DNA from: the human T2T-CHM13v2.0 reference genome, Homo sapiens
DNA: 64,000 bases
Reading direction: 5' to 3' (one strand)
NCBI RefSeq assembly: GCF_009914755.1
Contig: NC_060932.1
Shown: positions 28,712 through 31,203 of the stretch, in pieces
Position numbering within the stretch: the stretch's first letter is position 1
Layout: every line of letters begins with the position of its first letter
Program-made: the position numbers and the translations under genes
The notes under the pieces: generated by a model
Database searches by the model: none
What the model saw: the letters and a program-made list of their open reading frames with translations, nothing else
Told to the model about the DNA's origin: nothing

Positions 28712-29410
28712 ATTCATGAAAATAGAATAAGTTTAATTAGTTCTGATGAGTTTAGGGAATCTCCTTCCCCATACTTTTTGTAGTAAAATTGGGTAATATT
28801 GGTGGCTCATACTAGGTGCATTTTCTTGTGGAAGTTTAGAACTTTAATAATCAGTGCATTTGGGGACAGTGAAGTCTTGGAGTATTTGTCAGAATTCTAG
28901 TTAAATACATATTTAATTGACCCGTACAGGGAAATGTATTTACTAGTTTCTTATGACTGCATATATTTTTGTGGGAACAGATATTCTTGTTGACTATCCA
29001 GGAATTCTGCCTCCCAGGGTCAAAGGGCCTTCCTGGTGAGAATGAAACCAGAGAAGTTCTTGAAGGACATTTCCTTAATGCTGTGATAGGACACATTTGA
29101 CCTATCCTGCCTTATGCCAAAGCATGCACTTTTCTGCCACTGACTGCTCATGTCCACAAGATTCTTTTACAGCTGTACCTCACTGGACAAATACAGAGAA
29201 GTATCAACAGATTCTTATTCTTCATCTCTGGCTTGTTAAGTCCCCACGTGGACTTTTCATTCCATGGCCAATCTGCTTCATTTTTACAAAGTAATTACTC
29301 AGGCACTACTATGATGCCAGAAATAATCTCAGTGGTTCCAGCCTGGAGGGCTTCAATGGTAGCAGCAAGGACAAAGCTGATAGAGTAGTGATGTTCCTGA
29401 GGATGGCCAT

Positions 29411-29807
29411 TGTGATGGTTTAATTGCATGTGTCAACTTAGCTCGACTATGGCGAGCAGTTGTTTGGGCAAACACTAGTCTGGGTGTTGTGAAAATATTT
29501 TATAGATGTGATTAACATAAACATCTATGATCACTTGTTTTAAGTAAAGATTACTTTCGATTGAGGGGGCTGGTCTCATCCAATCAGTTGAAGGTCTTAA
29601 GGGCAAAAACTCAGGTTTCCCAGAGAAGAAGGAATTCTGCTTCAAGACTATAACATGAAAGTCCTCCCTGAGTTTCTTGTCTGCTGGACTGACCTACGAA
29701 TTTTGATTTGCCAGACCTCATGATCATATTAGCCAATTTCTTAATACTTTTTATGTGTATGAAACCTCCAATTGATTCTGTATCTTTGGAGAACCCTGGC
29801 TGAATCA
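29411..29807 (+). mobile_element. MLT2-family (ERVL) solo LTR inserted in the pseudogene
   Basis: tgtgatggtttaattgcatgtgtcaact...gagaaccctggctgaatca; perfect TSD gccat (29406-29410, 29808-29812). Confidence 0.9.
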
Positions 29808-30269
29808 GCCATCATTATGAGCTCTTGAAGAAAGGCTGCTGAATGGAGCTGAAATCTCATGCTCCTTTCTGTCAACACCTGAGTCTCCTGGACAGATAAG
29901 GCCCATCTCTACTATCTGTTCTCTAGGGCCTTTGACCCTGTGCTGCTCTTTGTAGCAGTAGAATTCCAGCCTGGAACCAGCAGGTGATCAGGAGAAAAAA
30001 ACCATACCAACCTGATCATGGCCAGGAATGTGACTATCTCTGCCAGGTGCTAGCCACTCATGACGTGGAGGCCATGCAGTGGTCCTGCAGGATGGCCCTG
30101 AACAAGGTGATGATGGAGACGGTACCAAAGCACAGACTTCCGGCTGCCCTTTCACCAGGATGGCTGTGAGTACTCACAACACTAGGATGGCCACTGGGGC
30201 TTTAGAGTCCTCAGGAACTAGGGCATTTTCTTGAGAAGGAAGCAGTTGAGGCAAGAAAAGAACAGTGTA

Positions 30270-30581
30270 GGCCGGGCTCGGTGGCTCACGCCTATAATCC
30301 CAGCACTTTGGGAGGCCGAAGCAGGCAGATCACCTGAGGTTGGGAGTTCGAGACCAGCCTGACCAACATGGAGAAACTCCATCTCTACTAAAAATACAAA
30401 ATTAATTGGGCATGGTGGTGCATGCCTGTAATCCCAGCTACTCAGAAGGCTGAGGCAGGAGAATTGCTTGAACCCAGGAGGTGGAGGTTGTGGTGAGCCG
30501 GGATCACGCCATTGCACTCCAGCCTGGGCAACAAGAGTGAAACTCCATCTCACAAAACAAACAAACAAACAAACAAACAAA
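30270..30581 (+). mobile_element. AluSp-like, inserted in the pseudogene
   Basis: gggagttcgagaccagcctgaccaacatggagaaa diagnostics; TSD aacagtgta; (CAAA)n tail. Confidence 0.92.
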
Positions 30582-31203
30582 AACAGTGTAACACATAGGG
30601 TCAGGACATGTTTAGAGATGGTACAAGGAATGTCTACCCCACACAGGGCACCAAGGAAGTAGACAAGGCCTTGGGCATACCTGCTAAGCTAAACATAATG
30701 TACAATACATTTTGGAATGGTCCAGGTGGTTTGTGAAGTACTTGGTGGAGACCATGAAGAAACTCCAGAGAAGCACTATCCCCAGGTCCAGCATAAAGAT
30801 GAGCCAGGTAGACTTCTATATCTCCTGTAGCCGCTGACAGGCTGCCATGGCAGTGGCATTTCTGGCTCTATCTGGTTGTCAGCTTCTCTAGGAACCAGGA
30901 CCAGGATTACAGGGGTGCTGACCAGTCTCTGGAAGAAGTTCTGGTTCCAGCTGTGGCGTTTGGAAGTAGGCTTCCCTCTATGGGATCCTGTTTGGATTAG
31001 AGGTATTTCCAGTTAGGAGGAAAATTTCCAAGGTACTCAGCACCATCCTGCTAATAGGAGGCTACAAACATGCGGTAATTTGGGGAAATTTTAGGTAAGG
31101 CTGCATGCTTCAGACAATCGATTCTACTACTTCCAATTTCACCATGATGGCTTTCTTACTCTAAGCCCTAGAGGAATTTTAAATCTTTAAGAGATAAATT
31201 TTA

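What the first reader, a model, noticed from the sequence alone, without database searches (positions are those of the whole stretch)
29290..30900. Hidden ancient retrocopy of SLC29A1/ENT1, almost invisible in the ORF track
Seen: after excising the MLT2 LTR (TSD gccat) and the AluSp (TSD aacagtgta), the minus strand gives at least seven collinear peptide blocks starting at ATG 30848. Only the fragment [14 protein letters not shown] appears in the ORF track, fused to an Alu ORF. Knowledge: these blocks match my recollection of human ENT1 residues 1 to ~330, an interval with many introns in the parent gene. Inference: this is an L1-mobilised mRNA copy, now dead (stops, frameshifts, deletions), including ~50 nt resembling the SLC29A1 5'UTR. 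It is decayed and fragmented enough that it may be unannotated, but I cannot check that.
Basis: partly seen in the sequence, partly recalled or inferred. Interest (0 to 1): 0.8.

Follow-up and report, generated by a model that had tools for sequence, protein, structure and literature searches.

The report
Decayed intronless copy of ENT1 gene
This stretch is a very old, broken, intron-free copy of the nucleoside-transporter gene SLC29A1 (ENT1), later split by two mobile-element insertions: a real but ordinary genomic fossil with no sign of function.

Summary
On the minus strand, window 30892-29289 (T2T chr8:71,577,289-71,578,892) aligns collinearly to the spliced SLC29A1/ENT1 mRNA once an Alu (30270-30581, 9-bp TSD) and a 397-bp solo LTR (29411-29807, 5-bp TSD) are removed. 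I rebuilt that mRNA from the parent gene on chr6 of the same genome. The alignment runs from 48 nt of exon-2 5'UTR to codon ~327 in exon 11. It has 610 of 828 aligned bases identical (73.7%), and blastn gives E 2e-44. It crosses nine exon junctions with none of the parent's 4,056 nt of introns.

The copy is dead: 7 in-frame stops, 39 frameshifting gaps, 0 of 23 parental CpGs kept, and near-uniform mismatch across codon positions. ENT1 is clearly the parent, not ENT2, ENT3 or ENT4.

The last ~1.25 kb of the mRNA (rest of exon 11 to the poly(A) tail) is missing. So no poly(A) tail or flanking duplication can be shown, and L1 involvement is inferred. The copy predates the LTR insertion and is probably early-eutherian or older.

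RefSeq lists nothing here, and I found no mention in print. GENCODE and the retrogene tracks could not be checked. It is one more ordinary processed pseudogene, of low interest.

The parts
30849..30892 (-). Copy of the 5'UTR part of SLC29A1 exon 2. It spans 48 nt of the parent UTR, up to about 6 nt from the exon-2 acceptor.
   Evidence: One search aligns mRNA 7-54 here. 42 bases are aligned with 10 mismatches. No homology to the 11.4 kb upstream of parent exon 2 was found further 5' (score 12, equal to the null median).
30591..30848 (-). Retrocopy segment 1: ATG (30848-30846) to about codon 88, from exons 2, 3 and the first part of exon 4. Junctions e2/e3 and e3/e4 are crossed without introns.
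   Evidence: PDB hit to hENT1 residues 13-49, E 1.8e-7. tblastn E 1.2e-8.
30582..30590 (.). Target-site duplication of the Alu, copy 1 (TACACTGTT on the minus strand).
   Evidence: Direct reading.
30270..30581 (+). Alu insertion of 312 nt. The head is at 30270 and the A-rich tail runs to 30581, opposite in orientation to the retrocopy. It sits inside exon-4-derived sequence (mRNA ~316-320), not at an exon junction.
   Evidence: It matches at least 8 Alu-sized repeats in the SLC29A1 locus at 72-84% identity over about 270-340 nt. The subfamily (AluSp) was not tested.
30261..30269 (.). Target-site duplication of the Alu, copy 2. It is also part of the retrocopy.
29813..30260 (-). Retrocopy segment 2: about codon 92 to about codon 283, from exons 4 to 9. 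Junctions e4/e5 to e8/e9 are crossed without introns. Several internal deletions of 8-32 nt lie in the exon 5-7 part.
   Evidence: tblastn residues 228-281, E 3.8e-4.
29808..29812 (.). 5-bp target-site duplication of the LTR, copy 1 (ATGGC on the minus strand).
29411..29807 (-). Solo LTR of 397 nt with TG...CA termini, inserted inside exon-9-derived sequence (mRNA ~902). It belongs to a dispersed repeat family. The ERVL/MLT2 name and the orientation come from recall only.
   Evidence: 1,127 first-look candidates in the genome, 40 scored. The 39 scored copies other than the self-match are 71-75% identical, and many end exactly at query base 395-397.
29406..29410 (.). 5-bp target-site duplication of the LTR, copy 2. 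It is also part of the retrocopy.
29289..29405 (-). Retrocopy segment 3: about codon 284 to about codon 327, from the end of exon 9, exon 10 and the first ~10 nt of exon 11. Junctions e9/e10 and e10/e11 are crossed without introns. This is the last firm homology.
   Evidence: Weak tblastn HSPs for residues 284-293 and 294-318 (E 5.7 each, collinear).
29129..29288 (-). Possible faint continuation into exon 11 and the start of exon 12 (mRNA 1050-1142). Not significant, so this is a doubtful part.
   Evidence: 55/100 columns identical. 9 of 200 shuffles reach the score with one gap setting and 23 of 200 with another.

Best explanation
Window 30892-29289 (minus strand) is a non-functional processed pseudogene, that is, a retrocopy of spliced SLC29A1/ENT1 mRNA.

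Proposed history:
1. A mature ENT1 transcript was reverse-transcribed and inserted on what is now chr8, far from the parent gene on chr6. This happened in the germ line of an early mammalian ancestor. By analogy with all studied mammalian processed pseudogenes, LINE-1 target-primed reverse transcription is the likely mechanism. This step is inferred.
2. The copy carried no promoter and decayed neutrally from the start. The stops, frameshifts, uniform codon-position divergence and complete CpG loss are shown.
3. It was then hit by an ERV-type element, of which only a solo LTR with a 5-bp TSD remains.
4. Much later a primate Alu with a 9-bp TSD inserted. The order relative to the retrocopy is shown by nesting.
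5. Its 3' third, with the poly(A) tail, was lost, most likely by a later deletion. This step is inferred.

It does nothing today. It is a genomic fossil.
For: Parent gene.
- A PF01733 scan of the same genome finds SLC29A1 exons on C6:44.06 Mb.
- From loci L011 and L012 I rebuilt 12 exons. All 11 introns between them are GT-AG, and the ORF is 456 codons.
- Exon 12 is 66/66 identical to PDB hENT1 6ob6_A.

Homology.
- blastn E 2.2e-44, 1.1e-8 and 5.7e-4, all collinear on one strand.
- The full alignment has 610/828 identical bases.
- Score 204 against a maximum of 43 in 60 control segments.

Intronless.
- The alignment crosses the 9 junctions e2/e3 to e10/e11 with no inserted block at any of them.
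- The parent has introns of 2047, 117, 115, 300, 86, 145, 474, 536 and 236 nt there, 4,056 nt in all (exon coordinates, alignment).
- The two large inserts lie inside exons and carry their own TSDs.

Dead and neutral.
- 7 in-frame stops among 242 fully aligned codons.
- 39 frameshifting gap runs among 55 in all.
- Mismatch at codon positions 1/2/3 is 0.268/0.228/0.298, chi-square p = 0.19.
- Transitions to transversions 130:88 and K2P 0.33.
- 0 of 23 parental CpGs kept.

Paralogue test.
- tblastx bits at E<=0.01: ENT1 297, ENT2 0, ENT4 0. ENT3 scores 49, on the antisense frames of that locus only.
- blastn gives five ENT1 HSPs at E 7e-10 to 3e-4, against a single ENT2 HSP at E 0.005.

Copy number. 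The segment is single-copy in the genome.

Older than the LTR. This follows from the nesting. In addition, the copy's second-position distance (JC 0.27) exceeds about half of the LTR family's pairwise distance (71-75% identity).
Against: - No poly(A) tail, no flanking target-site duplication and no 3' UTR were found, so the classical L1 hallmarks are untested.
- The copy keeps its 5' end and lacks its 3' end. This is the opposite of the usual 5' truncation and needs an extra event, a deletion.
- 0 of 12 translated pieces hit Pfam PF01733, even at E<=10.
- The genome-wide PF01733 scan (13 matches, none on C8) and a genome-wide search with ENT1 exon 4 (5 matches, none on C8) both miss the locus.
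- The PDB search with the 60-aa piece 29805-29987 found nothing. I attribute that to the crystallised chain lacking the loop this piece copies. The chain numbering is offset by 31 from the genomic numbering. That the construct lacks the loop is my recollection, not something tested here.
- Only two tblastn blocks are individually significant.
- The date is a rough inference from an optimised alignment. No other species was examined.
Confidence: 0.95

Rival explanations
1. A DNA-level (segmental) duplicate or relic of a lost ENT1-like paralogue that once had introns, rather than an mRNA-derived copy.
For: The missing poly(A) tail and TSD and the missing 3' end mean that the direct signs of retroposition are absent.
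Against: Nine consecutive exon junctions are joined without intron-sized blocks. There is no similarity to any intron of the parent locus outside Alus. Precise loss of nine introns from genomic DNA is not a known process in mammals.
Confidence: 0.02
2. A retrocopy of a different ENT paralogue (SLC29A2, SLC29A3 or SLC29A4) or of an extinct ENT1-like gene.
For: One ENT2 blastn HSP of 46 nt, E 0.005, in the conserved TM1 region. One ENT2 tblastx pair at E 0.03.
Against: ENT1 gives 297 tblastx bits against 0 for ENT2 and ENT4 at E<=0.01. The non-coding 5'UTR of ENT1 exon 2 is also matched, 32 of 42 bases. An extinct close ENT1 duplicate cannot be formally excluded.
Confidence: 0.02
3. A retrocopy that has been co-opted, for example as a non-coding RNA or a regulatory element near EYA1, rather than a pure fossil.
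For: No tool result supports this. It lies in the XKR9-EYA1 intergenic region, about 4 kb from the predicted lncRNA LOC124901959 (hub annotation).
Against: There is no overlap with the lncRNA (34946-44459, plus strand). Decay is uniform across codon positions and CpG loss is complete. The copy is split by two insertions. No conservation or expression data could be examined.
Confidence: 0.01

Closest known systems
Human processed pseudogenes (L1-mediated retrocopies of spliced mRNAs)
   Same: Intronless copy of a multi-exon gene on another chromosome. It starts in the 5'UTR, is disabled by stops and frameshifts, decays neutrally, and is interrupted by younger repeats.
   Different: It lacks the 3' end, the poly(A) tail and a detectable TSD. 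It is unusually decayed, at about 74% identity in an optimised alignment. Pfam and protein scans of the genome therefore do not see it.
SLC29A1 / ENT1 parent gene, chr6 (C6:44,061,425-44,068,3xx in this assembly)
   Same: The sequence descends from exons 2 to 11 (5'UTR to codon ~327). 119 of 242 fully aligned codons still encode the same residue.
   Different: No introns and no open frame. Exons 11 (rest) to 13 are absent. There is no detectable exon 1 or promoter sequence.
Other ENT-family relics in this genome: SLC29A4-like hits at C7:64,760,774 and C7:57,253,690
   Same: Extra ENT-family sequence outside the four functional genes.
   Different: Those keep 214-aa open frames and pass the Pfam cut-off (38.7-38.9 bits). 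They derive from the ENT4 branch. I did not examine their structure.

Membership tests
Processed pseudogene / retrocopy | Collinear homology to the mature mRNA of a multi-exon parent gene located elsewhere | tested here: met
   mRNA 7-1037 aligns to window 30892-29289, E 2.2e-44. The parent is on C6 and the copy on C8.
Processed pseudogene / retrocopy | Absence of the parent's introns at exon junctions | tested here: met
   9 of 9 covered junctions have no intron-sized insert. The parent introns total 4,056 nt. Junctions e5/e6 and e6/e7 fall in or beside small deletions, so they are less cleanly seen.
Processed pseudogene / retrocopy | 3' poly(A) tract | tested here: not met
   The mRNA beyond about position 1040 is not detectable next to the copy or anywhere in the 64-kb window. 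The end of the copy is therefore missing.
Processed pseudogene / retrocopy | Flanking target-site duplication from L1 endonuclease and TPRT | not testable with these tools
   The 3' boundary is lost and the 5' boundary is not defined, because homology stops at the exon 1/2 junction.
Processed pseudogene / retrocopy | Disabled reading frame and neutral substitution pattern | tested here: met
   7 stops, 39 frameshifting gaps, codon-position chi-square p = 0.19, and 0 of 23 CpGs kept.
SLC29 / ENT protein family (Pfam PF01733 Nucleoside_tran) | Match to the family HMM above the gathering score | tested here: not met
   0 of 12 translated pieces hit PF01733 at E<=10. The genome scan gives no C8 hit. 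Descent from ENT1 rests on pairwise DNA and protein alignment, not on the HMM.
SLC29A1 (ENT1) rather than SLC29A2, A3 or A4 as parent | Best match among the paralogues, including non-coding sequence | tested here: met
   for the coding sequence. The 5'UTR matches at 32/42 bases.
Alu SINE | About 300 nt, A-rich tail, flanking TSD, many copies | tested here: met
   312 nt, an A-rich (CAAA)n-type tail and a 9-bp perfect TSD. It matches Alu-sized repeats in the chr6 locus. Subfamily Sp was not tested.
ERV solo LTR (reader: MLT2 / ERVL) | TG...CA termini, short TSD, dispersed family of the same length | tested here: met
   One search shows TG...CA termini and a 5-bp TSD. One search gives 1,127 candidates, with the 39 scored copies other than the self-match at 71-75% identity. 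Assignment to MLT2/ERVL specifically was not tested, because there is no repeat library. It rests on recall.

The most novel reading that the evidence does not exclude
The copy may be absent from every public catalogue (GENCODE, HGNC, pseudogene.org, the UCSC retrogene track, RetrogeneDB). It may also date from before the eutherian radiation, possibly from the therian stem. If so, it would be one of the older recognisable mRNA retrocopies in the human genome and a usable presence/absence marker. Its 5'-complete, 3'-lacking shape would record either a later deletion or a non-standard insertion event.
Probability: 0.3. Interest if true: 0.2.

Novelty: new member of a known kind. Interest (0 to 1): 0.15.

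Why it matters
It matters little for biology. It adds one more entry to the thousands of human processed pseudogenes, and nothing suggests a function.

Its modest value is methodological. A copy this decayed, split by an Alu and an LTR, is missed by Pfam and protein scans of the whole genome. It is recovered at E 2e-44 once the nested insertions are removed and the spliced parent mRNA is used as the probe. That shows how old retrocopies can escape annotation.

If the copy proves to be shared across mammalian orders, it would date ENT1 germ-line expression and retroposition to early mammals.

Tried and rejected
- Pfam on 12 translated pieces gave no ENT hit, only a sub-threshold PIG-Y match (E 0.019), which I dismiss as a hydrophobic chance match.
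- A PDB search with piece 29805-29987 gave no hit.
- The search for the missing 3' part of the mRNA had four parts.
  - A local alignment of window 29345-28300 against mRNA 991-2310 scored 12, equal to the null median.
  - A tblastn hit at 28568-28521 (residues 374-389, E 5.2) has no DNA-level support. It also lies inside a dispersed repeat. I reject it.
  - A tail alignment reaching 29129 is marginal: 9 of 200 and 23 of 200 shuffles reach its score.
  - A whole-window blastn found only a (TG)n match at 36805-36870.
- The search for exon-1 sequence upstream of 30892 in the 11.4 kb before parent exon 2 gave nothing.
  - An apparent hit of window 30905-30875 to parent intron 2 (E 0.34) is chance. 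The same bases align to the exon-2 5'UTR.
- A genome search with ENT1 exon 12, looking for a displaced 3' half, found only the parent and the paralogues (6 matches).
- The flanks 28714-29288 and 30893-31250 were searched in the genome to find an older host repeat that would define the insertion site. Both are unique.
- Literature.
  - Four full-text searches gave nothing relevant. I saw only the search listings. The single 'ENT1 pseudogene' hit is a Staphylococcus enterotoxin paper.
  - The RetrogeneDB table in the supplement of PMC7290577 has no 'SLC29A1' symbol. I read part 1 of the file. Table S1 has 4,558 rows, and many carry no symbol, so this is weak evidence.
  - The supplements of PMC4772013 could not be read.
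- No consensus of the LTR family was built. Its age is judged from pairwise identities only.

Full report
**What is in the sequence.**

- Read on the minus strand, window 31100-29100 contains two nested insertions with perfect target-site duplications.
  - One is a 312-nt Alu (30270-30581), lying on the plus strand and flanked by TACACTGTT.
  - The other is a 397-nt TG...CA element (29411-29807), flanked by ATGGC.
- The Alu-sized insert matches at least eight Alu-sized repeats in the chr6 SLC29A1 locus at 72-84% identity.
- The 397-nt insert belongs to a dispersed family. There were 1,127 first-look candidates and 40 were scored. The 39 scored copies other than the self-match are 71-75% identical, and many end at the same last bases. 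This is what a solo LTR looks like.
I recall that MLT2-type LTRs end in a similar way, but no repeat library was available to test either name.
- The ORF list confirms that only one ENT-like fragment surfaces. It is the C-terminus of the 156-aa stop-to-stop ORF 30218..30688, which otherwise translates Alu antisense.

**Finding the parent.**

- The window's own assembly is held. A PF01733 (Nucleoside_tran) scan gave 13 matches.
  - They lie on C6 (44.06 Mb), C11, C10 and C7, which are the four SLC29 genes, plus two further C7 sites.
  - None lies on C8.
- I fetched C6:44,050,001-44,070,000 and translated it.
- I located the start-codon exon and the exon ends and joined 12 exons.
  - All 11 introns between them are GT-AG.
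  - The joined frame is 456 codons.
- Exon 12 is 66/66 identical to PDB chain 6ob6_A, 'Equilibrative nucleoside transporter 1'. The locus is therefore SLC29A1.

**Homology and its significance.**

- Piece 30684-30815 (minus) hits only hENT1 in the PDB, residues 13-49, E 1.8e-7.
- blastn of the minus strand against the unspliced chr6 locus gives collinear plus-strand hits in exons 3, 4, 5, 6 and 8, separated by parental introns.
- With the Alu plus one TSD (30270-30590) and the LTR plus one TSD (29411-29812) cut out in a script, blastn against the rebuilt mRNA gives three collinear HSPs:

| Window | mRNA | E-value |
|---|---|---|
| 30884-30108 | 19-490 | 2.2e-44 |
| 29974-29390 | 734-921 | 1.1e-8 |
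| 30063-30014 | 581-630 | 5.7e-4 |

- A local affine-gap alignment spans mRNA 7-1037 = window 30892-29289.
  - 828 columns are aligned and 610 are identical (73.7%).
  - There are 203 mRNA-only columns and 53 window-only columns, and the score is 204.25.
- Sixty other 950-nt segments of the window, on both strands, score a median of 24.5 and a maximum of 43.
- tblastn with the rebuilt protein gives E 1.2e-8 for residues 1-98 and E 3.8e-4 for residues 228-281. Four weaker collinear HSPs on the same strand have E 1.3-5.7.

**It is a processed copy.**

- The alignment crosses the nine junctions e2/e3 through e10/e11.
- The parent's introns there measure 2047, 117, 115, 300, 86, 145, 474, 536 and 236 nt, 4,056 nt in total.
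- The copy has no intron-sized block at any of them.
- Junctions e5/e6 and e6/e7 lie in or next to small deletions and are seen less cleanly.
- The two large inserts fall inside exon 4 and exon 9 and bring their own TSDs. They are later insertions, not intron remnants.
- The alignment begins 48 nt upstream of the ATG, within about 6 nt of the exon-2 acceptor. Of 42 aligned bases there, 32 are identical.
- Nothing upstream of 30892 resembles the 11.4 kb that precedes parent exon 2. Any exon-1-derived sequence is either unrecognisable or absent.

**It is dead and decayed neutrally.**

- Following the parent's frame, 327 codons are covered, 242 are fully aligned and 119 still encode the same residue. 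Seven are stops.
- 39 of 55 gap runs shift the frame.
- Mismatch is 0.268, 0.228 and 0.298 at codon positions 1, 2 and 3. These are not significantly different (chi-square p = 0.19).
- Transitions to transversions are 130:88 and K2P is 0.33.
- None of the 23 parental CpGs in the span survives.
- There is therefore no sign of a period under coding constraint.

**Which paralogue.** I fetched the ENT2, ENT3 and ENT4 loci.

| Locus | tblastx bits at E<=0.01 | blastn |
|---|---|---|
| ENT1 | 297 | five HSPs, E 7e-10 to 3e-4 |
| ENT2 | 0 | one 46-nt HSP, E 0.005 |
| ENT3 | 49 (two HSPs, antisense frames of the gene: chance) | E 0.27 only |
| ENT4 | 0 | none |

Together with the matched 5'UTR, this makes ENT1 the parent.

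**The missing 3' end.**

- Homology ends firmly at about 29289 (mRNA ~1037, codon ~327, about 10 nt into exon 11).
- A possible trace reaching 29129 is not significant.
- About 1.25 kb of mRNA is missing: the rest of exon 11, exons 12 and 13, the 3'UTR and the poly(A) tail. It is not found downstream, anywhere in the window or elsewhere in the genome by an exon-12 search.
- The next 575 nt (29288-28714) are unique in the genome.
- At about 28713 a dispersed repeat begins.
- Reverse transcription by L1 starts at the poly(A) tail, so a copy that keeps its 5' end but lacks its 3' end needs a later deletion. That step, and L1 involvement itself, are inferences. No poly(A) tail or TSD is available to test.

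**Age (inference).**

- The copy is older than the LTR that splits it.
- Pairwise identity of 71-75% among LTR copies corresponds to roughly 0.16 substitutions per site per copy, if the copies radiated together.
- The retrocopy's second-codon-position distance is JC 0.27. Most of that distance should lie on the pseudogene branch.
- From established knowledge of human-lineage neutral rates, this points to an insertion at or before the eutherian radiation.
- The alignment was optimised, so the distances are lower bounds. No other species could be examined.

**Annotation and literature.**

- The hub's RefSeq table lists no gene or pseudogene here.
- Four full-text searches found nothing relevant. 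The terms included SLC29A1P1, 'SLC29A1' with 'processed pseudogene', the retrocopy/retrogene/pseudogene terms, and phrases such as 'SLC29A1 pseudogene' (listings only).
- The RetrogeneDB table in the supplement of PMC7290577 holds no 'SLC29A1' symbol. Table S1 has 4,558 rows and I read part 1 of the file. Many rows have no symbol, so this is weak evidence.
- The supplements of PMC4772013 could not be read.
- Whole-genome Pfam and exon-4 protein scans both miss the locus. The segment is single-copy.

**Verdict.** The object is an ordinary, very old, 3'-truncated processed pseudogene of SLC29A1 with no indication of function. Interest is low.

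Noticed in passing
window 28000-28713 (minus-strand reading; it probably continues below 28000): A dispersed repeat starts about 575 nt downstream of the retrocopy's last homology. It had 5,093 first-look candidates. Many copies match only a ~350-nt unit (query 577-928) at 77-80% identity. Fewer extend through the next ~360 nt at 68-74%. This looks like an LTR plus internal sequence of an LTR retrotransposon. 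The family was not named.
   Followed up: partly
window 31251-31388 and 31435-31782: Two further Alu-like stretches lie just upstream of the retrocopy. They match the same Alu-sized repeats of the chr6 locus at 70-81% identity.
   Followed up: no
window 36805-36870 (+): A (TG)n-type simple repeat. It gives spurious matches to a TG-rich stretch in the SLC29A1 3'UTR. It lies just past exon 1 of the predicted lncRNA LOC124901959.
   Followed up: no
G000 C7:64760774-64760983 (L009) and C7:57253690-57253899 (L010): Two extra PF01733 matches of 38.7-38.9 bits, covering model positions 214-287, inside 214-aa open frames. They lie far from SLC29A4 at C7:5.42 Mb and look like duplicated ENT4-type exon relics.
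   Followed up: no
L012 (C6:44065805-44066107) and L011 (several sites): The SLC29A1 locus itself carries at least eight Alu-sized repeats in its introns and upstream region. These produced most of the raw blastn hits and had to be set aside.
   Followed up: partly
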